Source of the DNA: an uncultured Actinomycetes bacterium
GTDB lineage: Bacteria; Actinomycetota; Acidimicrobiia; Acidimicrobiales; JACCXE01
Direction: 5' to 3'
Length of the DNA: 64,000 nt
Assembly: GCA_963769985.1 (NCBI GenBank)
Contig: CAVYNR010000012.1
Location: 162,135-226,134 of the forward strand
Shown here: positions 4,191 through 60,337 of the stretch, piece by piece
How the letters are laid out: the number at the start of each line of letters is the position of its first letter
Numbering within the stretch: the stretch's first letter is position 1
The notes under the pieces: model-generated
The model's database searches: none
Seen by the model: only the letters and a program-made list of their open reading frames with translations
What the model was told of the DNA's origin: nothing
Translations under genes and position numbers: made by a program

Positions 4191-4811
4191 TCAGCCTTGT
4201 CCGTCCGCGACCGCCTCGTTGAATGTCGAGATCGTCGTGGACGTGGTGCTCGAACTCGTAGTCGTCGGGAACAGGCAGTGCGGGAACGGCTGGCACGGCA
4301 CGAAGGTCGGCAGCGTGACGCTTGGCAGCGTGACCGGCGGCAACGTGACGTTGGGCAGCGTCACACTCGGCAGCGTCGGCAGGGTGAGGCCGGGAAGCGA
4401 CGGCGCCGGGATGCACGGGATCGTCACGTTGGGCAACGTCACGCTCGGCAACGTGACCGGCGGCAACGTGACGCTCGGCAAGGTCACACTCGGCAACGTG
4501 ACGCTCGGCAACGTCACGTTCGGCAACGTCACACTCGGCAACGTGACCGGCGGCAACGTCACGTTCGGCAGCGTCACGTTCGGCAACGTCGGCAGCGTGG
4601 GCAGATTCCCGACGACCTTCGGGCTGACCTTGCCCGAACGCTTGGCCCCGATGGTGGTGTACGTCGAGGGCGGCGCTGTAGAGGGCGGTGGGCAGAAGGT
4701 CTTTGCCTTTGCAGCGGGCTGGCCGCTGAACGAGAGCCCCGGCGCAATGATGAATGCAGCGGCGGCGACCCCGAGGGTCACCAGAACGGGTTTCATGAAA
4801 CGACGGATCAT
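4191..4811 (-). CDS. secreted protein built from tandem LPxVT pentapeptide units
   Basis: 206 aa ORF. N-terminal signal-like MIRRFMKPVLVTLGVAAAAFIIAPG. About 15 canonical LP(S/N/P)VT units in two blocks (11 + 4). S/T-rich C-terminus. Confidence 0.7.
   Translation of the reverse strand: MIRRFMKPVLVTLGVAAAAFIIAPGLSFSGQPAAKAKTFCPPPSTAPPSTYTTIGAKRSGKVSPKVVGNLPTLPTLPNVTLPNVTLPPVTLPSVTLPNVTLPSVTLPSVTLPSVTLPPVTLPSVTLPNVTIPCIPAPSLPGLTLPTLPSVTLPNVTLPPVTLPSVTLPTFVPCQPFPHCLFPTTTSSSTTSTTISTFNEAVADGQG
4316..4612 (-). repeat. 15-nt tandem coding repeat (LPxVT units)
   Basis: Plus strand shows reiterated gtgacgctcggcaac / gtcacgttcggcaac / gtcacactcggcaac variants with strict 15-nt period. Lies inside CDS 4191..4811. 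Confidence 0.85.
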
Positions 4812-4892
4812 TGCGCGATTGCCTCCAGAAACGGGCGAGCCCCGGTATTGCGGCGAGAGACTAGCAACACCGAGGCTTCTGGCGTGGATTGG

Positions 4893-4915
4893 TTGTCACA
4901 CCCCCGTGACACACT
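4893..4915 (+). promoter_or_regulatory. TTGTCACAC-N8-CACACT element upstream of rpsF-ssb operon
   Basis: TTGTCACAC (4893-4901), 8-nt spacer CCCCGTGA, hexamer CACACT (4910-4915). Also part of the inverted repeat TGTCAC-ACCCCC-GTGACA. About 130 nt upstream of rpsF ATG. Same architecture at 6827, 16055(-) and 50716. Confidence 0.45.
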
Positions 4916-5041
4916 CCGCCGTAGGCGATTGCGGCTCGCGTCGACTACAGTCGCCCGGTTCCAAAAACTGAATACACCCCTGCCCCGCCAACGTGGTGGG
5001 GCCCCGAGCCGAGAGGCCGGGTCCAGAGGAGGTAGCCGCGT

Positions 5042-5434
5042 ATGCGGGCTTACGAAGTAGTAGTCATTTTCGACGCCACACTTGAGGAAGAGGCCATCCG
5101 GCCCGTTCTCGACCGTGCCACAGCGTCGCTCATCAAGGACGGCGCCAAGGTGACCACCGACCGGTGGGGCAAGCGGCGCTTTGCGTATGAGCTCAAGCAC
5201 CGCTGGGAGGGCAACTACGTCCTTCTCGCCTTCACGACCGAATCGGTGGAGAAGGTGTCGGAGCTCGACCGGGTTCTCTACCTCGCCGACGAAGTCCTGC
5301 GCCACAAGGTGATGCGGATTCCGGACAAGGTGGCGGGTCGCGAGCGGCCCACCCGTCCGGCCGAAACCGTCCCCGAAGCGGCGCCGGCGACTACAGGCGA
5401 TCCGGTTGGAGTCGCCACAGGAGAAGAGTCATGA
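5042..5434 (+). CDS. rpsF: 30S ribosomal protein S6
   Basis: [19 protein letters not shown]...[29 protein letters not shown] 7 nt upstream of the ATG. Followed by ssb-rpsR-rplI. Confidence 0.95.
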
Positions 5435-5895
5435 GCAACGGAAACAGCGTCACCCTCGTAGGCAACATCACCCGCGATCCCGAACTGCGGTTCACGCCCG
5501 CTGGTCAGGCAAACGCCACGTTCGGCATTGCCGTCAACCGCCGGTGGCAGAACCGTCAGACCAACGAGTGGGAAGAGAAGCGTCTCGTTCTTCAACGTCG
5601 TGTGCTGGCGCGAGATGGCCGAGAACGCAGCCGAGTCGTTGAACAAGGGCATGCGCGGTCTGGTGACTGGTCGCCTCGAGCAGCGCTCGTGGGAAACCCA
5701 GGAAGGCGAGAAGCGCACGGTCGTCGAGGTCGTGGCCGACGAGATCGGCCCGAGCCTGCGTTGGGCCTCGGCATCGGTCACCCGTAACGAGCGTCGCAAG
5801 CGGCGACGCCGGCCGGTGCCGGAGCAGCCGCCCCCGCACCCAACGAAGACTTCGGCAGCGCCGGAAGCTTCAGCAACGACGAGGAGCCCTTCTAA
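5431..5895 (+). pseudogene. ssb: single-stranded DNA-binding protein, reading frame interrupted twice as sequenced
   Basis: Frame 1 gives [50 protein letters not shown]. Frame 2 gives [72 protein letters not shown]. Frame 1 returns for ...[26 protein letters not shown]-stop (5893-5895). Shifts near 5580 and 5795. Confidence 0.85.
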
Positions 5896-6380
5896 TGGCG
5901 CGTGACCAGCGCGATCGCGACCGGAAGCGCAACCCGAAGGACACCGGTCGCCGCATCAAGAAGAAGGTCTGCCAGTTCTGCAAGGACCAGACCGTGTGGG
6001 TCGACTACAAGGACGTCCACGTGCTGCGGAAGTTCATGAGCGACCGCGGCAAGATCCGCACTCGCCGCGTGAGCGGCAACTGCGTGCAGCATCAACGCGA
6101 TGTCGCGATTGCGATCAAGACCTCACGCGAGCTCGCACTGCTCCCCTACGCCCAGCGCACGCTCAGCGAGCGCGGCGGCGGCCGGGGTGGTGGCGGTCGC
6201 GGTGGTCCCCGTCGTGACGGCCCGCGCCGCGACGACATGGATGCGCCCACGCTCAGTGACACCGCCGAGCCCGACGTGCTCGACGCGTTGCTCGAAGACG
6301 CCGAAGGCGTCGGTGACCAAGCCCCCGTCGACGACGTGGCCGACGCAGTCGACGCGGCAGATGTGGAGGGCGACGAATGA
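5895..6380 (+). CDS. rpsR: 30S ribosomal protein S18 with long Gly/Arg then acidic C-terminal extension
   Basis: [64 protein letters not shown] is the S18 core. It is followed by about 70 extra residues. ATG overlaps the ssb stop (TAATG). Confidence 0.9.
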
Positions 6381-6823
6381 AGGTTGTCCTTCGCAACGAC
6401 GTAGAAGACGTCGGCAAGCGCGGCGACATGGTCGAGGTGGCCGACGGTTTCGCCCGCAACTTCCTGATCCCGGGTGGCCAGGCGATCGCGGCCACCAACG
6501 GCATCAAGGCCCAGGCGGAGTCGATGCGTCGCAAGCGCGACCTGTCCGACGCCAAAGACCGTGAGGCCGCCGAGGTCGTGGCGCGCACCCTGGTGCCCGC
6601 AGTGATCAAGATCACGGCGAAGGTCGGCGCCGAAGGCAAGCTCTTCGGTTCCGTCACCACCGCCGAGATCGCCGCCGCCGTGCACGAGCAGACCGGCGTC
6701 GAACTCGACCGCCGCAAGCTTCACCTCAACGAGGCGATCAAATCCGCCGGCACGCACGAAATCCCGGTGCAACTGCACGGCGACGTCAAGTTCCAGATCA
6801 CCGTCGAGGTCACCGGCAGCTAA
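6377..6823 (+). CDS. rplI: 50S ribosomal protein L9
   Basis: [40 protein letters not shown] overlap with rpsR. Confidence 0.95.
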
Positions 6824-6826
6824 GGG

Positions 6827-6849
6827 TTGTCACACCGTCTCCGTACGGT
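6827..6849 (+). promoter_or_regulatory. TTGTCACAC-N8-TACGGT element upstream of dnaB
   Basis: TTGTCACAC (6827-6835), spacer CGTCTCCG, hexamer TACGGT (fits TAnnnT, 6844-6849). About 115 nt upstream of the dnaB start. Confidence 0.5.
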
Positions 6850-6861
6850 GACGGCATGAGG

Positions 6862-6901
6862 CCTGTGGATGACATAGCGAGTTCACCCGGCGTTCTCCAC
6901 A
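6862..6901. promoter_or_regulatory. two DnaA-box-like 9-mers in the dnaB leader
   Basis: CCTGTGGATGAC (6862-6873, reverse complement TCATCCACA) is identical to the 12-mer at 49059-49070 upstream of dnaA. TTCTCCACA at 6893-6901 also occurs (inverted) at 49233-49241. Confidence 0.45.
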
Positions 6902-6963
6902 AGGAATCCCCTTGTATTGGGGCTACCACCTCACAGGGTGAATAGGCGACGCTGCGGGTCCCC

Positions 6964-8328
6964 ATGGTCCAGTCCCTTGATGACGCTCGCCGCCAACGCA
7001 ATTCCGGCACGCGCGTTCCGCCACACGACTTGGCCGCGGAGGAGTCTCTGCTCGGCGCGATGTTGCTGTCGCCCAACGCCATTGGCGCCGCCGCCGAAGT
7101 TCGCCTGAACGCGACCGACTTCTACAAGCCGGCCCACGGCCACATCCACGACGCGATCGAGACGCTCTACAACCGCGGCGAGCCTGCCGACCCGATCACG
7201 GTTGCCGACGAGTTGCACCGCGCCGGCTTGCTCGAAGCGGTCGGCGGTCCGCCCACCCTCGTCGCGCTGCAAACCGGTACGCCGGCGATCTCCAATGCCG
7301 GTCGGTACGCCAAGATCGTCGAGGAGTTTTCGCTCCTGCGCCGACTCATCGGTGTAGCGGCCGAGATCGCCGACCTCGGCTACTCGCTGCCCGACGACGT
7401 CACCGCCGTCATCGACCGCGCCGAGACTCTCGTGTTCGACGTCAAGCAGAACCGCATGACCGAAGACATGATGCCGGTCAAGGCGTTGCTGGGCGACGCG
7501 CTCGACCGCCTCGAGGCGCTCTACGAACGCGGCGAGATGGTCACGGGTGTGCCCACCGGCTTTACCGACCTCGACGAACGCCTCGCCGGCCTGCAGCCGA
7601 ACAACCTCATCGTCGTCGGCGCCCGCCCCGCCATGGGCAAGACCGCCTTCGCGCTCAACGTCCTCGCTCACGCGGCGATGAAGGGCAACGTGCCGACTCT
7701 GCTGTTCAGCCTGGAAATGGGCCGAGAAGAAATCACCCAGCGCCTGCTGACCTCCGAAGCGCGCGTCGATGCCACGAAGCTGCGTACCGGACGCTTCGAC
7801 GAGTCGGACTGGGGGCGGGTTACCAACGCCGTCGGTCGTCTCGCCGAGGCGCCGATCTTCATCGACGACAGCCCGAATGTCACCGTGATGGACATTCGGG
7901 CCAAAGCCCGCCGCCTCAAGGCCCGCGAGGGCCTCGGCTTGATCATCATCGACTACCTCCAGCTGATGTCAGGCCGGCAACGTTCCGAGAGCCGACAAGT
8001 CGAGGTGTCGGAGATGAGCCGCAGCCTCAAGATCCTCGCCCGCGAACTCCAGATCCCCGTGGTCGCGTTGTCCCAGCTCTCCCGAGGGTTGGAGGCCCGC
8101 CAGGACAAGCGCCCGCTGCTGTCGGACCTTCGCGAATCTGGCTCCATAGAACAGGATGCGGACGTCGTGATCTTCATCTATCGCGACGAGATCTATAACC
8201 CCGAGTCGTCGGACCGAGGCGCGGCGGAGATCATCGTGTCGAAGCACCGCAACGGCCCGACCGGCATCTCGCGGCTCTCGTTCCTCAGCCACCACACGCG
8301 GTTCGAGAACATGGCGCGGGGCGTCTGA
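6964..8328 (+). CDS. dnaB: replicative DNA helicase DnaB (no intein)
   Basis: 454 aa. PPHDLAAEESLLGAMLLS N-terminal motif, Walker A GARPAMGKT, IIIDYLQLM, SQLSRGLE, DADVVIFIYRDE. Confidence 0.95.
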   Translation: MVQSLDDARRQRNSGTRVPPHDLAAEESLLGAMLLSPNAIGAAAEVRLNATDFYKPAHGHIHDAIETLYNRGEPADPITVADELHRAGLLEAVGGPPTLVALQTGTPAISNAGRYAKIVEEFSLLRRLIGVAAEIADLGYSLPDDVTAVIDRAETLVFDVKQNRMTEDMMPVKALLGDALDRLEALYERGEMVTGVPTGFTDLDERLAGLQPNNLIVVGARPAMGKTAFALNVLAHAAMKGNVPTLLFSLEMGREEITQRLLTSEARVDATKLRTGRFDESDWGRVTNAVGRLAEAPIFIDDSPNVTVMDIRAKARRLKAREGLGLIIIDYLQLMSGRQRSESRQVEVSEMSRSLKILARELQIPVVALSQLSRGLEARQDKRPLLSDLRESGSIEQDADVVIFIYRDEIYNPESSDRGAAEIIVSKHRNGPTGISRLSFLSHHTRFENMARGV

Positions 8329-15327: not shown

Positions 15328-16026
15328 CTACGGCCGGCCTCCGTCGAGTCGGGCGTGCGCGCCCAAGTCGGCGCGGTCGGCGGCCACGCGGCCGGACAAC
15401 CACCCGCCGCGATGACTCAACGTGGTCCGGCGGGTGCGCAGGGCCGGGAAGCTTTCGCTCATGAAGTCCTCGACCGCCCCTTCCCGCGCCGCCAGCAACG
15501 GCACCAACGCGGCACCGTGTTCGACCGTGGCTTCCTCGGTGGCCGTGGCGCGCGCCTCTCGCAGTCGCGCGCCGATCCGTGCCCCGAACGACACGAAGAA
15601 CGCGTGACGGAACGCGCGCAGCCGCCCGTCGGTGATGCGCGCCCCGGCGGCATGCATCTCACGCGTCGCTTGCACGAGCAAGGACGCGAACATCACCTCG
15701 CTCACCTCGACGTCTGACTCGAAGCCGATAAGCGTGATCGTGCCTCGGTCACCGGTGACGACCCGCACGTCGTTGGCGCTCGCAACGCCGGCCAACACGG
15801 TGACCTTGGCGCTGCGGTACGGATCGGCGATGGTGATGATCCGCAAGACCGGTTTGGCACCGGCCCGGCGCGGTCCCGCGGAGGCCAGCACGTCGTCGAT
15901 GGCGTGGCGCGTCATCAACTCCTGCGCCTTGGCCACAAACGCGGCCGCCTCTTCGGGATAGGGCGTGGACTCTGCCTTGGCTAGCAACGCCTGCACCCTC
16001 GCCAGCATCTTGTCGTCGCCCGCCAT
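15328..16026 (-). CDS. DUF2786 domain protein
   Basis: N-terminus MLARVQALLAKAESTPYPEEAAAFVAKAQELMTRHAIDD matches the DUF2786 pattern. 232 aa. Confidence 0.7.
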   Translation of the reverse strand: MAGDDKMLARVQALLAKAESTPYPEEAAAFVAKAQELMTRHAIDDVLASAGPRRAGAKPVLRIITIADPYRSAKVTVLAGVASANDVRVVTGDRGTITLIGFESDVEVSEVMFASLLVQATREMHAAGARITDGRLRAFRHAFFVSFGARIGARLREARATATEEATVEHGAALVPLLAAREGAVEDFMSESFPALRTRRTTLSHRGGWLSGRVAADRADLGAHARLDGGRP

Positions 16027-16032
16027 GGTCCG

Positions 16033-16055
16033 AACCTATCCAGGGGGTGTGACAC
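16033..16055 (-). promoter_or_regulatory. GTGTCACAC-N8-TAGGTT element immediately upstream of the DUF2786 gene (would give a leaderless mRNA)
   Basis: Minus strand reads GTGTCACAC (16055-16047), CCCCTGGA, TAGGTT (16038-16033), CGGACC, ATG (16026). TAGGTT fits TAnnnT 6 nt before the ATG. Confidence 0.5.
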
Positions 16056-16835: not shown

Positions 16836-17703
16836 GCCGACATGCTTGCACGCCCGGACCTGCCATACAGGCCCAGCTCCTCGGCGGCGTCGCCCGGAAG
16901 CCGGTAACCCTCGTCGGGACCGGGAAACGTGCGGGCGCGCACGTCGGCCGCGTAACGCGTGACGGCCTCGACGCCGGCGGACTTCATCTCGGCGTAGCGA
17001 CGCACGAAGCGTGGGCGTGACGCGGTCCTCCAAGCCGAGCAGGTCGTGCATGACCAGCACTTGACCGTCGCATGATGCGCCGGCGCCGATACCGATCGTC
17101 GGCACCGGTACCGCTTCGGTGACGAGGCGGGCCACGTCGTCGGGCACGCACTCCAGCACGATGCGCGAACACGCCGGCGGCGACGAGCGCGTGGGCGTCG
17201 TCGATGAGCAGCCGCGCCGCTTCGGCGGTGCGCCCCTGCACTTTGAAGCCGCCCAGCGCGTTGATCGACTGCGGGGTCAGGCCAAGGTGACCCATCACGG
17301 GGATCTCGGCGTCGACGATCGCTTCGATCACGGGCACGCGCTTGGCGCCGCCCTCGAGCTTGACCGACCGCGCCCCGGCGCGGATCAGCGTGGCGGCATT
17401 GGCCACTGCGTCGTTGCGGCCGAGGTGGTAGCTCATCCACGGCAGGTCGCCGACCACGAGCGCGCGCGGGTTGGTGCGGGCGACCGCCGCCGTGTGGTGC
17501 GCCATGTCCTCGATGGTCACCTGCAGCGTGTCGTCGTAACCGAGCACGACCATGGCGACGGAGTCGCCCACCAGGATGAGGTCGACACCGGCGTCGTCGG
17601 CAATGCGTGCCGTGGGCGCGTCGTAGGCAGTGACCATCACCAACGGTGTTTGGCCCTTCGCGGCGCGCACGTCAGGAACCGTGACTGGTTTGAGACCAGA
17701 CAT
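16832..17703 (-). pseudogene. panB: 3-methyl-2-oxobutanoate hydroxymethyltransferase, two frame changes as sequenced
   Basis: LVMVTAYDAPTARIADDAGVDLILVGDSVAMVVLGYDDTL...VKLEGG...[11 protein letters not shown], then [44 protein letters not shown] (second frame), then [36 protein letters not shown] (third frame). Junctions near 17165 and 17020. Confidence 0.85.
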
Positions 17704-17970: not shown

Positions 17971-20101
17971 CTACCCGTTCGGCGTCGACAGCCGGCGACG
18001 TCGTGGCCGACGGCTCGCCTTCTGACGGTGGCGGCGGTGGCCCCGGCGCGACCGTCGTGGGACTGGTGCCCGGACTGCCGCCGCTCCCCGACGGTTTCAC
18101 GCCCGACACGACCGATGTGCTGCTGGGCGTCGTCGTGGCCGGCGCCGGTCGGAACGTCGATCGGCTCGTACCGAGCACCTTGCCCGGGAACTTGGTAACG
18201 GTCGGGAACTTGCCGAGGGTTTGTCCCTTGGTGACCGCCGATCATGAACTTCTTCCAGATCGCCGCCGGCACGCTGCCGCCGGTGACGGGTTTCCCGCCG
18301 CGGAAACTCGCCAGCGTGCGGGCGTTGCCCTCGGGATAGCCCATCCACACGGCGGTGGTGAGCGATGTCGTGGAGCCCACAAACCACGCGTCGCCGTAGT
18401 CCTGCGTGGTGCCGGTCTTGCCGATGAGCGTGTCGGCTTCGGCCGCCGGCCACCGCGCGCCGACGCCCGTGCCTCGCTCGACGACTTCGGTCAGCGCGGT
18501 GTTCACGACGTCGGCTTGCTCGGGCGACGAGGACGCGCTTGCGTTCCGGGTTCGACCGGAACAGCACCTTGCCGTCACCGGTCTCGATCTTCTAGATGAA
18601 TTGCGGTGTGATTCGTTCGCCGCGGCGCGCCAATGTCGAATACGGCAGACGCGATGTCGAGCGGTGATACCTCGACGGTGCCGAGAACGAGCGACGCAAC
18701 CGGGCGCAGCGGCGCGGTGACGCCGAGGTCTTGGCTTGCTCCATCAGTTGCTCGGGGCCGATGACTGTCTCGGCTTGCGCGTAGACGGTATTGACGGAGT
18801 TGCGAGTTGCTTCGATGAGGTTGACGTTGCCGCCGAACCCCTCATCCTCGTAGTTGCCTACGCGCCAATCCTTCCCGTTGTCGGCCTTCTCCAGCACGAT
18901 CTCGGACGGCGCCGGAAAGGCCGATTCGAGCGTGTAACCCTCATGCACGATTTCGGCGAGCAGGAACGGCTTGAACGTCGAACCCGGCTGCCGGCCCTTG
19001 CCACCGCCGTCGCGGCCCACCGCCAGGTTCACATTCGACGCCTCGAAGTTCTTGCCGCCGACGAGCGCGCGGACGCGGCCTTCGTCGTCGACCGCCACCA
19101 ACGCGCCGGCGGGATCGCCACTGCGGTTGAGGATGCCGTAGACCGCGTTGTAGGCGGCGCGCTGCGCGCCCATGTCGATGTTGGTGGTGACTCGAAGACC
19201 GCCGCCGAACGTGGCCTGCTCGCCGTAGTCGCGCACAAGCTGGCGACGCACGTAATCCACGACATATTCGGTCCCCGCTCTCGGCGGCCACGACGCGTGG
19301 CGCGGTCTGGTTCGACGGGAGGACGTAGCTCGTGAGTTCCTGCGCTTCGACCTCGGCCTGGTCGCTCTTGGAAATGTCTTTGGTGGCCACCATCGACTGA
19401 AGCGTGCGATGGCGCCGCGCCGTCGCGGTCACCGGATCCCGCGCGACATCGGCGGACTCCGGCGCGCGGATCAGCCCCGCGAGATACGCCGCCTCACGCA
19501 AACCGAGTTGGCCGACGTCCTTGCCGAACCAGGCTTGCGACGCCGCTTGTACTCCGTAGGCCCCGCGGCCGAAGTAGACGGTGTTGAGGTACCGCTCGAG
19601 CAGTTCGCGCTTGGTGAGTTCGCGCTCGAGCTTGACCGCGAGCACCGCTTCTCTGAGCTTGCGCCAAACGGTGCGCTCGCGTCCGACGTAGGTGTTCTTC
19701 ACGTATTGCTGGGTGAGTGTCGATCCGCCCTGCAGCTTTCCGCCGCGGATGTCGTTCACGGTCGCGCGGACGAGGCCGACGGGGTCGACGCCGCCGTGCT
19801 CGTAGAAATGCCGGTCCTCGACCGCGAGCACGGCTCGAACCACCACGCGTGGCACCGCCTTGAGCGGTACCGAGATGCGATTCTCCCGCCCGGTCAGGGT
19901 CGCGAGGCGGCTTCCGTCGGCCGCGTACAGGAACGTCGTTTGCGCCGGCGGGACCGCGTCAGGCAGCGGAACCCGCGACAGCACGAACAGCACCCCTGCG
20001 ACCGCGGTGAAGGCGAGCAGCCCGAACAGGAACAGAATCCGGCGATAACGCCACACCCAACTCCGACGCCGACGGCGCTTCTTGGTGGGGCGCCCCGGCA
20101 T
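17971..20101 (-). pseudogene. ponA: class A penicillin-binding protein (transglycosylase + transpeptidase), heavily disrupted as sequenced
   Basis: N-terminal TM, GT51 motifs AVEDRHFYEHGGVD, GGSTLTQQ, RKLREAVLA. Transpeptidase motifs GSTFKP, RNSVN, KTGTTQDYGDAWFVG. P/T/S-rich tail. Text moves between frames near 19265, 18725, 18655, 18545, 18240 and 17980, with an in-frame TAG at 18592-18594. Confidence 0.8.
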
Positions 20102-50652: not shown

Positions 50653-50850
50653 CCCCGCGCGGCGTTGTGGATCATGGGGGGTGTCATCCCCAGTAATTCA
50701 CGCCGGTCCCGTTCGGTGTCACACCGCTGTGTGATTCTGGGGACGACACGCCGCGAACATTTCCCCGGTTGACCTGCTCGAACGAGGTGTTGTGCACAAT
50801 CCACAGCACCTACTACTGCTACTGAATTTGAAACTAACTAACTAGTTGGA
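50645..50850. promoter_or_regulatory. dnaA-dnaN spacer: hairpin over the dnaA stop, two DnaA-box-like sites and an A/T-rich tract (oriC candidate)
   Basis: GGGGATGAC (50645-50653) pairs with GTCATCCCC (50683-50691), with TGTGGATCA (50666-50674) in the loop region. CAATCCACA at 50797-50805. A/T-rich TACTACTGCTACTGAATTTGAAACTAACTAACTAGTTGGA at 50811-50850. Confidence 0.5.
50716..50738 (+). promoter_or_regulatory. GTGTCACAC-N8-GATTCT element upstream of dnaN-recF
   Basis: GTGTCACAC (50716-50724), spacer CGCTGTGT, hexamer GATTCT (50733-50738). Contains the palindrome TCACAC-CGCT-GTGTGA (50719-50734). About 120 nt upstream of the dnaN GTG. Confidence 0.45.
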
Positions 50851-50859
50851 GAACCCCCT

Positions 50860-51957
50860 GTGAAGTTTCGCTGCGAAAGGGACGTGCTCGTCGAGGCTCT
50901 GACCTCTGCGAGCCGGGCCACATCCGGTCGGGAACGGCTGCCCGTGTTGGCAGGTGCGCGCCTGGAAGTCACCGGCGACGAACTACGCATCACCGCGACC
51001 GATCTCGACCTCACGATCGAAGTCGTCGCTACGGTCGCGGGCATCGCCGATGGCGTGTCCGTAATTCCAGCCAAGCTCGCGTCAGACATTGTGCGCGCGC
51101 TCGAGCCCGGCGCGGTCACCGTCGAGGCCGACGCTGATCAGGCGAAGATCGCATCAGGTCGTTCGCAATTCGCGGTGCGTGTGCTTCCCGCCGACGAATT
51201 CCCGGCGTCGCCCGCGACGGTCTCAGGTGAGGCCGTCACCGTCGCCGCCGCCGAACTGGCCGACGCGTTGCGCCAGGTGGTGCGCGCCGCGAGCGGCGAC
51301 GAAGCGCGGCCCATCCTCACCGGTGTGTTGTTGGCCGCCACCGCCGACGGCGTGCAACTCGTCGCCACCGACAGCTACCGCTTGGCTGTGCGCGACTTGC
51401 CCGGCCTGCATGTAGTGCGCGGCGAGCAGAAGGTACTCATCCCGTCTCGGGCCCTGGCCGAACTACAACGCGTGCTCGGCGGCGCCGCCGAAGCCTCAGT
51501 GCGGCTCGGCACGACGGAGGCAAGCTTCGAGATCGGTGGCGTGAAGCTCACCACCCGCCTGATCGAGGGCGAGTTCCCCAACGTGTTGAACCTGGTGCCG
51601 CCCAGCTATCCCAACAAGCTCACGGTTAGTCGCGAGGCGCTGCTTGACGCGGTGAAGCGCGTGAAGCTGCTCGTGCGCGACCAAACCACACCGGTGCGCA
51701 TGTCACTGCGCGCCGATGGCGTCGAGGTCACCGTCACCAACCCCGCGGAGGGCACCGCCACCGAAGACGTCGAGGCGAAATACGAAGGCGAGGAGATGGC
51801 CGTCGCGTTCAACCCGCAGTACCTGACCGACGGTATCGAAGCGATTACCGGTGACGAGCTCACCCTGGAAACCACCGACGCGCTGAAGGCCGCCACCATG
51901 CGCGGCGTCGGCGCCGATCACTACCTGTACCTGCTCATGCCAGTGCGGGTGCCGTAA
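50860..51957 (+). CDS. dnaN: DNA polymerase III beta sliding clamp
   Basis: GTG start after GGAGAA. MKFRCERDVLVEALTSASRA..., ...ARPILTGVLL..., LIEGEFPN, ...YLLMPVRV C-terminus. 365 aa. Confidence 0.95.
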   Translation: MKFRCERDVLVEALTSASRATSGRERLPVLAGARLEVTGDELRITATDLDLTIEVVATVAGIADGVSVIPAKLASDIVRALEPGAVTVEADADQAKIASGRSQFAVRVLPADEFPASPATVSGEAVTVAAAELADALRQVVRAASGDEARPILTGVLLAATADGVQLVATDSYRLAVRDLPGLHVVRGEQKVLIPSRALAELQRVLGGAAEASVRLGTTEASFEIGGVKLTTRLIEGEFPNVLNLVPPSYPNKLTVSREALLDAVKRVKLLVRDQTTPVRMSLRADGVEVTVTNPAEGTATEDVEAKYEGEEMAVAFNPQYLTDGIEAITGDELTLETTDALKAATMRGVGADHYLYLLMPVRVP

Positions 51958-51964
51958 ACGGCGC

Positions 51965-53065
51965 GTGCGCGTCAACTGGCTCGCGGTTCAGGACTTTCGT
52001 AGTTACGAGTCCGCTCGTCTCGACCTGGCGCCAGACGGCCTCACCGTGGTGGTGGGTGAGAACGGGCAGGGAAAGACCAACTTGCTCGAAGCGCTCGGTT
52101 GGTTGGCGACGCTGGCGTCATTCCGAGGTGCGCCCAACGACGCGCTCGTGCGCCAGGGCGCGGCGTCGGCGTTTATCCGAGCAGAAGCCGACCGTGAGGG
52201 CCGGCGCCTTACCCTCGAAGCCGAGGTGCCCCAGCACGGTGCGCCCCGCGTATTGGTGAACGGCCAAGCGCTGCGACGCAGCCGCGACCTTCTCGGCGCG
52301 GTGCGGGTGAGCGTGTTCAGCCCCGACGACCTCGCGCTGATCAAATCCGGTCCGTCCCAGCGCCGGCAACTCCTCGACGACGCGCTGGTCGCCCTGCATC
52401 CCGAGCACGCGGACACAATCACCTCGGTCGACCGTGTGCTTCGCCAACGCGGCGCGCTCCTGCGCCAAGCGGGCGGCAAAGCCACGCCGGAGGTGGTGGC
52501 CACGCTCGACGTGTGGGACGCCAAGCTCGCCGAGCACGGGGCGACGCTCGTCGTGGCCCGGCGCGAGTTGGCGGCCCGTCTCGAGCCGCTCACGGCAAAG
52601 GCGTACGCGTCGGTCGCGGCCGGCGCGGCCACGATCGGGCTCCGCTACGTCGCGTCGTGGACCAATCCCAACGATCTCGACGAACGCGCCGCGTTGCACG
52701 CCGCGCTCACCGCCGTGCGGGCTGATGACCTGCGCCGTGGGGTTACAACGCTCGGGCCCCACCGCGATGAACTCGAACTACACGTCGGAACGCTCCCGGC
52801 GCGCACGCACGCGTCGCAAGGCGAGCAGCGTTCGCTGGCATTGGCACTACGGCTGGCGGTGCACGCGGCCGTCACGGAGGCCACGGGTGCGGCTCCGGTG
52901 CTGTTGCTCGACGACGTGTTCTCCGAGCTCGATCCGCACCGATCAGCGGCGTTGCTCGCCAGCCTGCCCGCCGGCCAAGCGGTGTTGACGACCGCCGGTC
53001 CGCTGCCCGCGGGCGCGGTGCCCGCGTCTACCGTGCACATCGAAGGCGGCCGGATAGCGGAATGA
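51965..53065 (+). CDS. recF: DNA replication and repair protein RecF
   Basis: FRSYESARLDLAPDGLTVVVGENGQGKTNLLEA (Walker A), SQGEQRSLALALRLA (signature), VLLLDDVFSELD (Walker B). Confidence 0.95.
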   Translation: MRVNWLAVQDFRSYESARLDLAPDGLTVVVGENGQGKTNLLEALGWLATLASFRGAPNDALVRQGAASAFIRAEADREGRRLTLEAEVPQHGAPRVLVNGQALRRSRDLLGAVRVSVFSPDDLALIKSGPSQRRQLLDDALVALHPEHADTITSVDRVLRQRGALLRQAGGKATPEVVATLDVWDAKLAEHGATLVVARRELAARLEPLTAKAYASVAAGAATIGLRYVASWTNPNDLDERAALHAALTAVRADDLRRGVTTLGPHRDELELHVGTLPARTHASQGEQRSLALALRLAVHAAVTEATGAAPVLLLDDVFSELDPHRSAALLASLPAGQAVLTTAGPLPAGAVPASTVHIEGGRIAE

Positions 53066-53133: not shown

Positions 53134-54045
53134 GTGAAGTTGCTTCGTTTCAACAATTGGACACGCGGTGTGGTTGGTGTCGTCGCGGGTATCGCGCTGT
53201 TCACCGGCGCTACCGTGATGCAGGCCGACGCCTTACCCGGTGGTCAGGTGCAAGCCCAGGCGGCGGCGCTCACGGTCAGTCCCCGCGCCACGAACCTGTC
53301 CGACCCACAAAATCTGCTGGTGTCGGGATCAGGGTGGGCTCCGAACGCCAGCATCCTGATCGGCCAGTGCAAGGCGGCGCCGACTCTGTTCGGGGGCGGC
53401 ACCTGCGATTCGAATAGCGACGTCACGGTCACGTCCAATGCCTCCGGGTCGTTCAGCAACGTCCCGCTCACGGTCCGCGCCGCGTTTGTCGGCTCCGTGA
53501 TCAATCCGCGGACGTCGAGCACGACCTCGCTGGCCAACGTCAACTGCCGTTCGACGAAATGCGGCGTGTACGGCATCTGGATCAACCAGGCGAACCAGCT
53601 GTCGAGCGTGATCAAGGGCGTCACGATCAGCTTCGCCCCCGCCGGTTCGAGCACCACGTCATCGTCGTCGACCTCGACCTCGTCCACCTCCACCTCGTCA
53701 ACGACCTCGTCAACGACCTCGTCGACGACCTCCTCAACGACTTCGACATCGACGACCTCGACGACGCTGCAGTCGACCACCACGACGGCGCCCCGAGTCG
53801 GTCTGCTGTGCCGGTTGCGGCCGCAGAGTTGCCAGTCGGCGCGGCTGAACGCGTTGCCCACCGCACCCGCTGCGGCGCCGGTCGTGTTGCAACCGACCTA
53901 CACCGTGGCGCCAGGCGACAACTTGTTCTCGATCGCGCAGCGCCTGTTGGGCGACGGCAGCGCCTATCAAGAGTTGGCGGCGGCGAATCACATCGCGAAT
54001 CCGAGCTTGATCCACCCCGGCCAAGTCCTCGTTCTCCCGACCTAA
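53134..54045 (+). CDS. secreted protein: neocarzinostatin-like Ig-fold domain + Ser/Thr linker + C-terminal LysM
   Basis: Signal-like VVGVVAGIALFTGATVMQADA. LTVSPRATNLSDPQNLLVSGSGWAPNASILIGQCKAAP...C...VNCRSTKCGV follows the neocarzinostatin-family pattern. LysM YTVAPGDNLFSIAQRLLGDGSAYQELAAANHIANPSLIHPGQVLVLP. Confidence 0.7.
   Translation: MKLLRFNNWTRGVVGVVAGIALFTGATVMQADALPGGQVQAQAAALTVSPRATNLSDPQNLLVSGSGWAPNASILIGQCKAAPTLFGGGTCDSNSDVTVTSNASGSFSNVPLTVRAAFVGSVINPRTSSTTSLANVNCRSTKCGVYGIWINQANQLSSVIKGVTISFAPAGSSTTSSSSTSTSSTSTSSTTSSTTSSTTSSTTSTSTTSTTLQSTTTTAPRVGLLCRLRPQSCQSARLNALPTAPAAAPVVLQPTYTVAPGDNLFSIAQRLLGDGSAYQELAAANHIANPSLIHPGQVLVLPT
53648..53790 (+). repeat. Ser/Thr-coding low-complexity tandem repeat
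   Basis: Reiterated tcgtcaacgacc / tcgtcgacgacc 12-nt units encoding SSTT-type linker (STTSSSSTSTSSTSTSSTTSSTTSSTTSSTTSTSTTSTT). Confidence 0.8.
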
Positions 54046-54394: not shown

Positions 54395-54476
54395 AATCCG
54401 CGGTGAAACGGCCGGAGACGCCCCACTCGTCTGGTAAACTTACGTCATTGCAATTCGGCATTTACTACGCCTCTGA

Positions 54477-60337
<5,861 letters not shown>

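What the first reader, a model, noticed from the sequence alone, without database searches (positions are those of the whole stretch)
4893..4915. Recurrent (T/G)TGTCACAC-N8-nAnnnT element upstream of rpsF-ssb, dnaB, dnaN-recF and a DUF2786 gene: candidate replication/damage-regulon promoter
Seen in sequence. Four sense-oriented copies lie upstream of genes: 4893-4915 (TTGTCACAC CCCCGTGA CACACT, rpsF-ssb operon), 6827-6849 (TTGTCACAC CGTCTCCG TACGGT, dnaB), 16055-16033 minus strand (GTGTCACAC CCCCTGGA TAGGTT, then 6 nt and the ATG of the DUF2786 gene) and 50716-50738 (GTGTCACAC CGCTGTGT GATTCT, dnaN-recF). The 9-mer-to-hexamer spacing is exactly 8 nt in all four. Two hexamers fit the actinobacterial -10 pattern TAnnnT, and the other two keep A2 and T6. 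Established knowledge: the RecA-independent DNA-damage promoter of mycobacteria and other actinobacteria (RecA-NDp, consensus tTGTCRgtg-N8-TAnnnT, recognised through the WYL-domain activator PafBC) has the same layout. Here the last three bases are CAC instead of GTG. Inference: a variant of that promoter class, or a new regulator site, may coordinate ssb, dnaB and dnaN/recF, with the DUF2786 gene as an unexpected fourth member. A 9-mer recurring four times in 64 kb, each time oriented toward a start codon, is unlikely to be chance. I could not search the window exhaustively.
Basis: partly seen in the sequence, partly recalled or inferred. Interest (0 to 1): 0.65.

Follow-up and report, generated by a model that had tools for sequence, protein, structure and literature searches.

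The report
Damage-type promoter motif before replication genes

Summary
KTGTCACAC-N8-nAnnnT occurs four times in the window against 0.01 expected. Every copy is intergenic and points at rpsF-ssb, dnaB, a DUF2786 gene or dnaN-recF.

Related Acidimicrobiales contigs keep the element at the same places while the flanks diverge. In about 718 kb of related DNA, all 29 strong matches lie upstream of rpsF, dnaB, dnaN, gyrB, or DUF2786 genes or operons. The DUF2786 copy sits 6-7 nt before the ATG, which implies a leaderless mRNA. In other genomes DUF2786 is co-operonic with an AlkZ-like glycosylase and an HNH protein.

The geometry matches PafBC (RecA-NDp) promoters nucleotide for nucleotide: an upstream element at about -28 to -21, 10 nt between its first six bases and the hexamer, a -10 hexamer, and no -35. 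In M. tuberculosis, ssb and dnaB carry canonical PafBC motifs, and TGTCAC is an accepted variant there. Streptomyces has the canonical motif before rpsF.

The local consensus is GTnACACC. ACACC is invariant and the C of GTC is not, which departs from the canonical motif.

I could not test whether pafBC exists in this lineage, whether damage induces these genes, or what lies upstream of recA and uvrA.

Verdict: a lineage-specific variant of a known promoter class. Interest is moderate.

The parts
4893..4915 (+). Site 1. Upstream element TTGTCACAC (4893-4901), 8-nt spacer, -10-like hexamer CACACT (4910-4915). It lies 126 nt upstream of the rpsF ATG (5042), in the divergent intergenic region between a secreted repeat protein (4191-4811, minus strand) and rpsF-ssb-rpsR-rplI.
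   Evidence: Orthologous sites at the same place: L081 TCGTCACAC-N8-CATACT, L162 GTGTCACAC-N8-CACAAT, L163 GCGCTACAC-N8-CATACT, L164/L165 TCGTTACAC-N8-CATACT. Sequence upstream of the element is not conserved.
6827..6849 (+). Site 2. TTGTCACAC (6827-6835), 8-nt spacer, -10 hexamer TACGGT (6844-6849). It starts 4 nt after the rplI stop and lies 114 nt upstream of the dnaB ATG (6964).
   Evidence: The columns TGT.ACACC and CGTAC..T are invariant in five genomes and upstream sequence is unconserved. In L081 a separate terminator-like hairpin lies between rplI and the element.
16033..16055 (-). Site 3. GTGTCACAC (16055-16047), 8-nt spacer, -10 hexamer TAGGTT (16038-16033), then 6 nt and the ATG (16026) of the DUF2786/DUF7168 gene. 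This arrangement predicts a leaderless mRNA.
   Evidence: The element is followed by the same 6-7 nt gap to the ATG in L081, L167, L170-L172 and L173, in four different gene neighbourhoods. In L169 the element instead lies about 51 nt upstream of an HNH gene that precedes DUF2786, so the DUF2786 family carries the element in five neighbourhoods in all.
50716..50738 (+). Site 4. GTGTCACAC (50716-50724), 8-nt spacer, weak -10-like hexamer GATTCT (50733-50738). It lies 121 nt upstream of the dnaN GTG (50860), inside the dnaA-dnaN spacer (oriC region) among DnaA-box-like sequences.
   Evidence: Conserved in L082 (GTGTCACAC), L083 (GCGTTACAC) and L085 (CCGTCACAC...GAGGCT). A more distant clade has TGTC-N12-TANNNT 30-40 nt upstream of dnaN in 9 loci.
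54418..54440 (+). Probable degenerate fifth site. ACGCCCCAC-TCGTCTGG-TAAACT, about 104 nt upstream of the likely gyrB ATG (54545). The -10 hexamer TAAACT is kept and the upstream element carries three substitutions.
   Evidence: Intact in relatives: L083 ACGTCACAC-CGGTCTGG-TAAACT, L082 ACGTCACAC-CCATCTGG-TAGTCT, L086 CTGTCACAG-GCGCCTGG-TAGACT, all upstream of gyrB. Its matrix score in the window is only 9.7.
5042..6823 (+). rpsF-ssb-rpsR-rplI operon, downstream of site 1. The ssb reading frame is broken in this assembly.
   Evidence: Pfam. Translation.
6964..8328 (+). dnaB (replicative helicase), downstream of site 2.
   Evidence: Pfam. Homologues.
15328..16026 (-). DUF2786/DUF7168 gene (232 aa, PHROG 421, function unknown), downstream of site 3.
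50860..53065 (+). dnaN-recF, downstream of site 4.
   Evidence: Pfam.
54545..60337 (+). gyrB-gyrA, downstream of the degenerate fifth site. gyrA contains an intein.
   Evidence: Pfam. Start codon set by comparison with L083.

Best explanation
The four elements, plus a decayed fifth before gyrB, are promoters that lack a -35 element.

This is the architecture of actinobacterial RecA-NDp/PafBC promoters. In those, the housekeeping RNA polymerase holoenzyme cannot use the promoter alone. A WYL-domain activator, PafBC once it has bound single-stranded DNA, inserts between sigma region 4 and the DNA and reads the -26 element. This mechanism is called sigma adaptation.

I infer that this Acidimicrobiales lineage has a PafBC orthologue, or a close functional equivalent, with shifted base specificity. 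I infer that it switches on ssb, dnaB, dnaN-recF, gyrBA and a leaderless DUF2786 gene when replication is perturbed or DNA is damaged.

Shown here: the motif, its fixed geometry, its conservation, its exclusive location upstream of these genes, and the absence of a -35. Inferred: that it is a promoter, the transcription start about 7 nt after the hexamer, the identity of the activator, and the inducing signal.
For: 1. Statistics. The full pattern occurs 4 times against 0.01 expected. A matrix built without the window sites separates the four sites (23.7-26.4) from everything else in the window (10.5 or less).

2. Footprinting. The element and hexamer are conserved at the same positions upstream of rpsF, dnaB and dnaN in relatives with 70-93% protein identity, while flanks diverge. 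Spacing is invariant in the 22 sites tabulated. G3, A6, C7, A8, C10, and A2 and T6 of the hexamer are present in 22 of 22.

3. Specificity. In about 718 kb of related contigs, all 29 matrix hits of 13 or more lie upstream of rpsF, dnaB, dnaN, gyrB, or DUF2786 genes or operons and point at them.

4. The hexamer lies 6-7 nt before the DUF2786 ATG in window-type, L167, L170-172 and L173 contexts. This fits a leaderless transcript starting at the A of the ATG.

5. No sigma-70-type -35/-10 pair exists in 4700-7100.

6. Geometry equals the in vivo PafBC motif tGTCgg(N10)tA(N3)T, with the upstream element at -28 to -23 (PMC8635444).

7. TGTCAC-N10-TA-N3-T is listed as a PafBC variant in M. tuberculosis. 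M. tuberculosis ssb has TGTCGGTGCGGTTACGTAGGCT 55 nt upstream. M. tuberculosis dnaB has TGTCGGTGCGGCGACTTACGCT 57 nt upstream. Both are mitomycin-induced PafBC candidates (PMC8151990).

8. Thirteen Streptomyces loci (14 loci in all, with one Streptomyces-like locus carrying a differently spaced variant) carry the canonical TGTC[AG]GTG-N8-TAnCGT about 70 nt upstream of rpsF.

9. The DUF2786 gene is co-operonic with an AlkZ-like DNA glycosylase (L169-L172) and an HNH-domain protein (L169), all behind the motif. This links the regulon to DNA repair.

10. GyrB protein is 1.5-fold lower in M. smegmatis lacking pafBC (PMC5656591).
Against: 1. No PafB, PafC or WYL gene was found in the window or in any fetched locus (tblastn; Pfam on about 70 window ORFs).

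2. The C of the GTC triplet is described as nearly absolute in PafBC promoters because PafB R46 and R50 read its two guanines. Here it is only 16 of 22 (T in 5, A in 1), and GCT variants occur. ACACC is invariant instead.

3. Classic PafBC targets (recA, uvrA, radA, adnAB) could not be examined in this lineage.

4. dnaN and recF are not induced in M. tuberculosis.

5. Streptomyces and other Actinomycetia loci have no such motif upstream of dnaB.

6. Two window hexamers (CACACT, GATTCT) lack the first T.

7. The gyrB copy in the window is degenerate. One close relative (L166) and Actinoallomurus (L168) lack the DUF2786 site.

8. There are no transcription data.
Confidence: 0.6

Rival explanations
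1. The sites are -26-type promoters served by a different, lineage-specific activator. This could be another WYL protein such as SiwR, or an unrelated HTH protein, that reads G..ACACC. Its regulon would be a replisome or cell-cycle set (ssb, dnaB, dnaN, gyrBA), not the general DNA-damage response.
For: The invariant bases are ACACC, not GTC. A second WYL activator acting at -26 with a different triplet (GGA) exists in M. smegmatis (PMC10693628). The authors of the sigma-adaptation paper propose that the mechanism is widespread. The members seen here are mostly replisome parts, and dnaN and gyrB are not classic PafBC targets.
Against: The G and T of GTC and the exact register match PafBC sites. 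The more distant clade keeps TGTC invariant at the orthologous dnaN promoter, which suggests drift within one system. ssb and dnaB are PafBC targets elsewhere. The links to DUF2786-AlkZ-like, HNH and recF point to repair. The apparent replisome bias is partly sampling, because only neighbourhoods of dnaB, dnaN and DUF2786 were fetched.
Confidence: 0.2
2. The GTCACA core is a half-site for the response regulator MtrA or another OmpR-family regulator. MtrA binds GTCACAgcg repeats in the mycobacterial oriC and dnaA promoter, and GTnACC-n5-GTnACn in Streptomyces.
For: GTCACA is literally the mycobacterial MtrA half-site, and GTnAC with a free third base fits the variability seen here. Site 4 lies in oriC, a known MtrA target. 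Site 1 in the window reads GTCACA-ccccc-GTGACA, a direct repeat with a 5-nt spacer.
Against: The second half-site is present only in the window's rpsF site. It is absent from sites 2-4 and from the rpsF orthologues. No upstream repeat exists. What is conserved is the exact distance to A2 and T6 of a -10 hexamer, which places the element at -27 to -21, not around -35 to -40 as expected for an OmpR-type activator. The distant clade tolerates TGTCGT and TGTCTC, which break GTnAC.
Confidence: 0.07
3. The sites are constitutive promoters. GTnACACC would be a lineage-specific upstream element contacted directly by the housekeeping holoenzyme, marking strongly expressed replication genes without a dedicated regulator.
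For: Many actinobacterial promoters have only a -10 element (PMC8635444). The genes are essential housekeeping genes. rpsF has a second conserved promoter-like block (GCGTCGAsTACnAT) just downstream, so dual promoters are plausible.
Against: The element is absent from all other transcription units of the window, including dnaA, trxB, sigM-like, ino1 and rpmH-side genes. It precedes non-essential, phage-like DUF2786 genes and HNH/AlkZ operons. No sigma-70-family region 4 is known to read an element 10-11 nt from the -10 hexamer (own knowledge).
Confidence: 0.08
4. There is no shared function. The matches would be chance, variant DnaA boxes, or hairpins and terminators.
For: The 9-mer count alone is only marginal (3 of 100 shuffles). 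Site 4 lies among DnaA boxes. Sites 1, 2 and 4 each contain a short inverted repeat.
Against: The full pattern occurs 4 times against 0.01 expected and is conserved in orthologues. The local DnaA boxes have a TCCACA core (TTGTGCACAATCCACAG, GTTCTCCACAA) and are conserved separately next to the element. The inverted repeats are in different registers and are not kept in orthologues. No T-tract terminators are present. The four sites share no similarity beyond the 23 nt, so this is not a mobile repeat.
Confidence: 0.02

Closest known systems
RecA-NDp / PafBC-dependent promoters of Actinomycetia (Mycobacterium, Streptomyces, Corynebacterium); consensus tTGTCRgtg-N8-TAnnnT, equivalent to tGTCgg-N10-tAnnnT
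   Same: - Bipartite, non-palindromic and directional.
- Upstream element in the same register (G at about -27), with the same 10 nt between its first six bases and the -10 hexamer.
- No -35 element.
- Lies 0-150 nt upstream of the gene.
- ssb operon and dnaB are shared targets.
- TGTCAC is an accepted variant in M. tuberculosis.
   Different: - Positions 6-10 read ACACC and are invariant, instead of (G/A)GTG with weak conservation.
- The C of GTC is replaceable (C, T, A, or CT for TC).
- Additional targets: dnaN-recF, gyrBA, leaderless DUF2786, and HNH/AlkZ-like operons.
- The host is class Acidimicrobiia, for which I found no published PafBC promoter.
- The regulator and induction are unverified.
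SiwR-dependent promoter of the dinS operon (M. smegmatis)
   Same: A WYL-domain activator that needs a short element at -26 next to a -10 hexamer (PMC10693628). This shows that -26 elements with other sequences exist.
   Different: The SiwR site is a 19-bp imperfect palindrome with a GGA triplet. It controls only adjacent dinB-like genes. The sites here are non-palindromic and dispersed.
MtrA boxes (GTCACAgcg direct repeats in M. tuberculosis oriC and dnaA; GTnACC-n5-GTnACn in Streptomyces)
   Same: The GTCACA hexamer, an association with the origin region and replication genes, and a free third base.
   Different: No consistent second half-site. A strict distance to a -10 hexamer. A position too close to the -10 for an OmpR-type activator.
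DnaA boxes (TTGTCCACA-like)
   Same: The first five bases are TTGTC, and the element occurs in oriC and in the dnaB leader region.
   Different: The core TCCACA is absent. True DnaA-box-like elements are conserved separately beside the motif.

Membership tests
RecA-NDp / PafBC promoter | 22-nt bipartite layout: upstream hexamer, N10, then tAnnnT, with invariant spacing | tested here: met
   Met by all 4 window sites and by the 22 window plus orthologous sites tabulated. The layout is defined in PMC8635444.
RecA-NDp / PafBC promoter | Near-absolute GTC triplet at -27 to -25 (two guanines read by PafB R46 and R50) | tested here: inconclusive
   The window has GTC in 4 of 4 sites. Across relatives G is 22 of 22 and T is 21 of 22, but C is only 16 of 22 (T in 5, A in 1). 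GCT occurs in L163 and L173. The distant dnaN clade keeps TGTC in 9 of 9.
RecA-NDp / PafBC promoter | Canonical -10 (TAnnnT) and no -35 element | tested here: met
   A2 and T6 are present in 22 of 22 sites and T1 in 13 of 22. No -35/-10 pair was found in 4700-7100. The hexamers at the 17-nt position are GATTGG and TAAGGG (read).
RecA-NDp / PafBC promoter | Directional, upstream of DNA replication or repair genes; regulon overlaps known PafBC targets | tested here: met
   29 of 29 strong hits point at rpsF-ssb, dnaB, dnaN-recF, gyrB, or DUF2786/HNH/AlkZ-like genes. ssb and dnaB are PafBC candidates in M. tuberculosis.
RecA-NDp / PafBC promoter | The genome encodes PafB/PafC (HTH-WYL-WCX pair, usually next to pafA) | not testable with these tools
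   None was found in the window or in fetched loci (Pfam), but these cover only a small part of the genomes. The literature states that PafBC is present in almost every actinobacterial species and that Acidimicrobiales have the pupylation locus.
RecA-NDp / PafBC promoter | Induced by DNA damage or ssDNA in a PafBC-dependent, RecA-independent way | not testable with these tools
   This requires transcriptomics or in vitro transcription.
MtrA box | Two direct-repeat half-sites (GTCACAgcg x2, or GTnACC-n5-GTnACn) | tested here: not met
   A second half-site exists only in the window's rpsF site. It is absent from the other three sites and from the rpsF orthologues.
DnaA box | 9-mer with a TCCACA core (TTGTCCACA-like) | tested here: not met
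   TGTCACACC lacks the core. Genuine boxes are conserved beside it.
Intrinsic terminator or structured element | Conserved GC-rich hairpin followed by a T-run | tested here: not met
   No terminator-like site was found. The inverted repeats differ in register and are not kept in orthologues.

The most novel reading that the evidence does not exclude
The element may not be read by PafBC at all. It may be read by a so far undescribed sigma-adaptor-type activator of Acidimicrobiales that recognises G..ACACC at -27 to -20. Such an activator would couple expression of the replisome core (SSB, DnaB, beta clamp, RecF, gyrase) with a conserved phage-like leaderless DUF2786 gene and its HNH/AlkZ-like partners. 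That would be a dedicated replication-stress regulon, distinct from both the LexA and the PafBC regulons.
Probability: 0.2. Interest if true: 0.6.

Novelty: new variant of a known kind. Interest (0 to 1): 0.4.

Why it matters
PafBC-type sigma adaptation has been characterised only in class Actinomycetia, where the GTC triplet is treated as the defining read-out.

If the Acidimicrobiales elements are PafBC promoters, three things follow:
- The system reaches a deep-branching, largely uncultured class.
- The recognition code has shifted to G..ACACC, which predicts co-variation in the PafB recognition helix.
- The regulon includes the beta clamp, gyrase and a conserved DUF2786 protein of unknown function, which would then become a candidate DNA-damage or replication-stress factor.

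The weight matrix also gives a practical tool for predicting damage regulons in Acidimicrobiales MAGs. The gain is incremental: the promoter class, its mechanism, and ssb and dnaB as targets are already known.

Tried and rejected
- **Genome-contig scan with DnaB.** None carried the motif.
- **Exact look-ups of the window's own DnaB.** The protein is not on record, so the source contig beyond the window could not be read.
- **Search for PafB.** I confirmed an M. tuberculosis PafB sequence recalled from memory against PDB entry 7P5X. I then ran tblastn with the M. smegmatis PafB sequence from that alignment (residues 1-246 of 331) on the window and all loci fetched up to then. There were no hits. 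A database-wide PafB search would have listed only mycobacterial hits, so I did not run it.
- **Müller et al. 2018 (Cell Reports), the PafBC regulon paper.** It is not held in the library.
- **Canonical motif TGTC[AG]GTG in the window.** There are 9 hits, none followed by TAnnnT.
- **GTC-N12-TAnnnT upstream of dnaB in 32 Actinomycetia-type loci.** None found.
- **Rfam on the window and on 4880-7000.** Only a tRNA-Ile was found.
- **Taxon of the distant dnaN clade.** It is labelled only 'Actinomycetota bacterium'.
- **Rejected readings.** LexA or dyad-operator, hairpin and repeat-element readings were rejected because the inverted repeats are inconsistent between sites and the flanks are unrelated.

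Full report
**Observation**

The 9-mer count alone is weak evidence: 4 observed against 1.05 expected, with 3 of 100 shuffles reaching 4. The 8-mer TGTCACAC is weaker still, with 12 of 100 shuffles reaching 4.

The composite pattern KTGTCACAC-N8-NANNNT gives 4 matches against 0.01 expected. The clade-wide form GTNACACC-N8-ANNNT (that is, N7 then nAnnnT) gives 4 against 0.19. All four copies share a tenth base (TGTCACACC), lie between genes, and point at the next start codon. They share nothing beyond the 23 nt, so they are not copies of a mobile repeat.

**Context**

The window has about 67% G+C and is the origin region of an uncultured Acidimicrobiales-type actinobacterium. DnaB and DUF2786 homologues at 70-92% identity come from MAGs labelled Acidimicrobiales or Actinomycetota.

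Pfam confirms the following genes:
- rpsF-ssb-rpsR-rplI and dnaB
- DUF2786+DUF7168
- parA, rsmG, jag and yidC on one side of dnaA, and dnaN, recF, DUF721, gyrB and gyrA on the other

No WYL-domain gene is present among the ORFs examined.

**Comparative evidence**

I fetched related loci in three ways: around DnaB homologues (L081, L162-L165), around DnaN homologues from metagenomes (L082-L161), and around DUF2786 homologues (L166-L173).

*rpsF.* The element and its hexamer are kept while sequence upstream of the element is unalignable:
- TCGTCACAC-N8-CATACT
- GTGTCACAC-N8-CACAAT
- GCGCTACAC-N8-CATACT
- TCGTTACAC-N8-CATACT

*dnaB.* The columns TGT.ACACC and CGTAC..T are invariant in five genomes. 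In L081 a separate terminator-like hairpin lies between rplI and the element. This argues that the element starts a new transcript.

*dnaN.* L082, L083 and L085 keep the element. Most relatives with 48-61% DnaN identity lack it. A more distant group of unclassified Actinomycetota MAGs has TGTC-N12-TANNNT 30-40 nt upstream of dnaN in 9 loci, and only 10 such matches exist in 92 kb.

L082, L083 and L086 carry the element about 90-100 nt upstream of gyrB. The window keeps the -10 hexamer TAAACT, but the upstream word has decayed to GCCCCAC.

*Specificity.* In roughly 718 kb of related DNA, all 29 positions scoring 13 or more with the matrix lie upstream of rpsF, dnaB, dnaN, gyrB, or DUF2786 genes or operons. 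A matrix built without the window sites scores the four window sites 23.7-26.4. The next best window position scores 10.5. Simulated sequence, scored with the matrix that includes the window sites, never exceeds 18.4.

**Anatomy**

Column counts over 22 sites:

| Position | Count |
|---|---|
| G3 | 22/22 |
| T4 | 21/22 |
| Position 5 | C 16, T 5, A 1 |
| A6, C7, A8 | 22/22 each |
| Position 9 | C 19, G 3 |
| C10 | 22/22 |
| Hexamer A2 and T6 | 22/22 each |
| Hexamer T1 | 13/22 |

Spacing never varies. If transcription starts 7 nt after the hexamer, the element occupies about -29 to -20, with G at -27. No -35-like hexamer sits 16-18 nt upstream of the -10 (and direct reading).

**The DUF2786 gene**

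In the window the hexamer TAGGTT is followed by 6 nt and then the ATG, which is the arrangement of a leaderless mRNA. The same 6-7 nt gap recurs in L081, L167, L170-L172 and L173, in four different gene neighbourhoods.

In L170-L172 DUF2786 overlaps a downstream AlkZ-like DNA glycosylase gene. In L169 the element lies about 51 nt upstream of an HNH-domain gene that is followed by DUF2786 and an AlkZ-like gene.

One close relative (L166) and an Actinoallomurus homologue (L168) lack the element.

The protein belongs to PHROG 421, of unknown function. It has a confident AlphaFold model (pLDDT 89) and no significant match in PDB. It is therefore a well-supported, conserved member of the regulon, with a link to DNA repair through its operon partners.

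**Comparison with the known class**

The in vivo PafBC motif is tGTCgg(N10)tA(N3)T. Its upstream part lies at -28 to -23, it has a SigA-type -10, and it has no -35. PafBC inserts between sigma region 4 and the DNA, and PafB R46 and R50 read the guanines of the GTC triplet (PMC8635444). The window sites, read as TGTCAC(N10)nAnnnT, fit this to the nucleotide.

In M. tuberculosis the variants TGTCAG and TGTCAC are explicitly accepted. ssb, rpsR, rplI and dnaB are mitomycin-induced PafBC candidates, with motifs 55 and 57 nt upstream of ssb and dnaB. dnaN and recF are not induced (PMC8151990).

In the Streptomyces loci fetched here, the canonical TGTCAGTG-N8-TACCGT lies about 70 nt upstream of rpsF. 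The ssb operon is thus served by this promoter type in three lineages, and dnaB in two (M. tuberculosis and this one), since the Streptomyces dnaB loci have no such motif. M. smegmatis lacking pafBC has 1.5-fold less GyrB (PMC5656591). [quoted passage not shown] That fits a regulon rich in replisome genes.

**Where it departs from the known class**

The C of GTC is replaceable here, and ACACC is invariant. This is the opposite weighting to canonical sites. All published examples I could read come from class Actinomycetia.

I could not establish that this lineage has pafBC. Nothing was found in the window or loci, and the rest of these genomes is out of reach of the tools. The literature says only that PafBC occurs in almost every actinobacterial species and that Acidimicrobiales have the pupylation locus. 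A recA gene appeared in L173, but its promoter lies outside the locus. That locus does show a lexA gene with actinobacterial SOS boxes.

**Rivals**

*A different activator acting at -26.* This is plausible, and SiwR is a precedent.

*MtrA.* Its half-site is GTCACA, it binds the mycobacterial oriC, and it tolerates any third base. However, the required second half-site occurs only in the window's rpsF copy. The conserved feature is the distance to the -10 hexamer, and the distant clade breaks GTnAC.

*DnaA boxes.* The local boxes have a TCCACA core and are conserved separately beside the element.

*Hairpin, terminator or palindromic-operator readings.* These fail because the inverted repeats differ in register and are not conserved.

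**Verdict**

dnaN-recF, gyrBA and a leaderless DUF2786 gene are lineage-specific targets.

My confidence that the sites are promoters of this architecture is about 0.85. My confidence that a PafBC orthologue drives them in response to DNA damage or replication stress is about 0.6. This is a new variant of a known kind, of moderate interest.

Noticed in passing
window 5431-5905: The ssb reading frame is broken twice. The N-terminal OB-fold part is in one frame (5431-5787, Pfam SSB positions 2-46). The middle is in another frame (5528-5905, SSB positions 41-101). The C-terminal DEEPF tail is back in the first frame. Relatives have intact ssb genes of 153-158 aa. This is probably an indel error in the assembly, not a pseudogene.
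   Followed up: partly
window 16984-17703 and 18592-20101: panB matches only positions 2-177 of 259 in its Pfam model. The class A PBP is split, with the transglycosylase domain in one ORF and a partial transpeptidase domain in another. These are further apparent frameshifts, consistent with an error-prone (long-read?) MAG assembly.
   Followed up: no
window 6862-6872 and 6892-6902: The predicted dnaB 5' leader contains two DnaA-box-like elements, CCTGTGGATGA and GTTCTCCACAA. They are nearly invariant in five genomes, which suggests that DnaA also controls dnaB expression.
   Followed up: partly
window 4966-5041: The rpsF 5' UTR is a highly conserved structured leader. It has two hairpins with compensatory changes, and a stem that pairs the Shine-Dalgarno GGAGG with an upstream CCNCC. 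It looks like an r-protein (S6:S18?) autoregulatory leader. There was no Rfam match even at E of 1 or less.
   Followed up: partly
window 4938-4951: A second conserved promoter-like block, GCGTCGAsTACnAT (with -10-like TACAGT at 4946-4951), lies about 30 nt downstream of site 1. It may be a housekeeping rpsF promoter in tandem with the motif promoter.
   Followed up: no
window 56519-60337: gyrA encodes 1272 aa and contains an intein with a LAGLIDADG homing-endonuclease domain (about residues 156-572). Some relatives instead carry an intein in DnaB (for example L163, 621 aa), which the window's DnaB lacks.
   Followed up: partly
window 50790-50806: A tandem DnaA-box pair, TTGTGCACAATCCACAG, followed by CCTACTACT, lies about 55-70 nt upstream of dnaN. 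It is conserved in nearly all 80 metagenomic dnaN loci, including distant ones, and serves as a signature of this oriC.
   Followed up: no
window 53134-54045: A secreted protein is inserted between recF and the DUF721 gene. It has an enediyne-chromoprotein-like domain, a long Ser/Thr-rich linker and a C-terminal LysM domain. This is an unusual occupant of the dnaN-recF-gyrB cluster.
   Followed up: no
window 4191-4811 (minus strand): The divergent neighbour of rpsF encodes a signal-peptide protein with no Pfam match. Its gene is built of short DNA repeats (GTCACACTCGGCAACGT...). These account for three of the stray GTCACAC 7-mers in the window.
   Followed up: no
L173 13630-13785: In a related Acidimicrobiales contig, the lexA upstream region carries one canonical actinobacterial SOS box (cGAACgggcGTTCg) and two near-copies (AAACacccGTTCG). 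The lineage therefore also has a LexA system alongside the motif described here. recA in that contig contains an intein.
   Followed up: no
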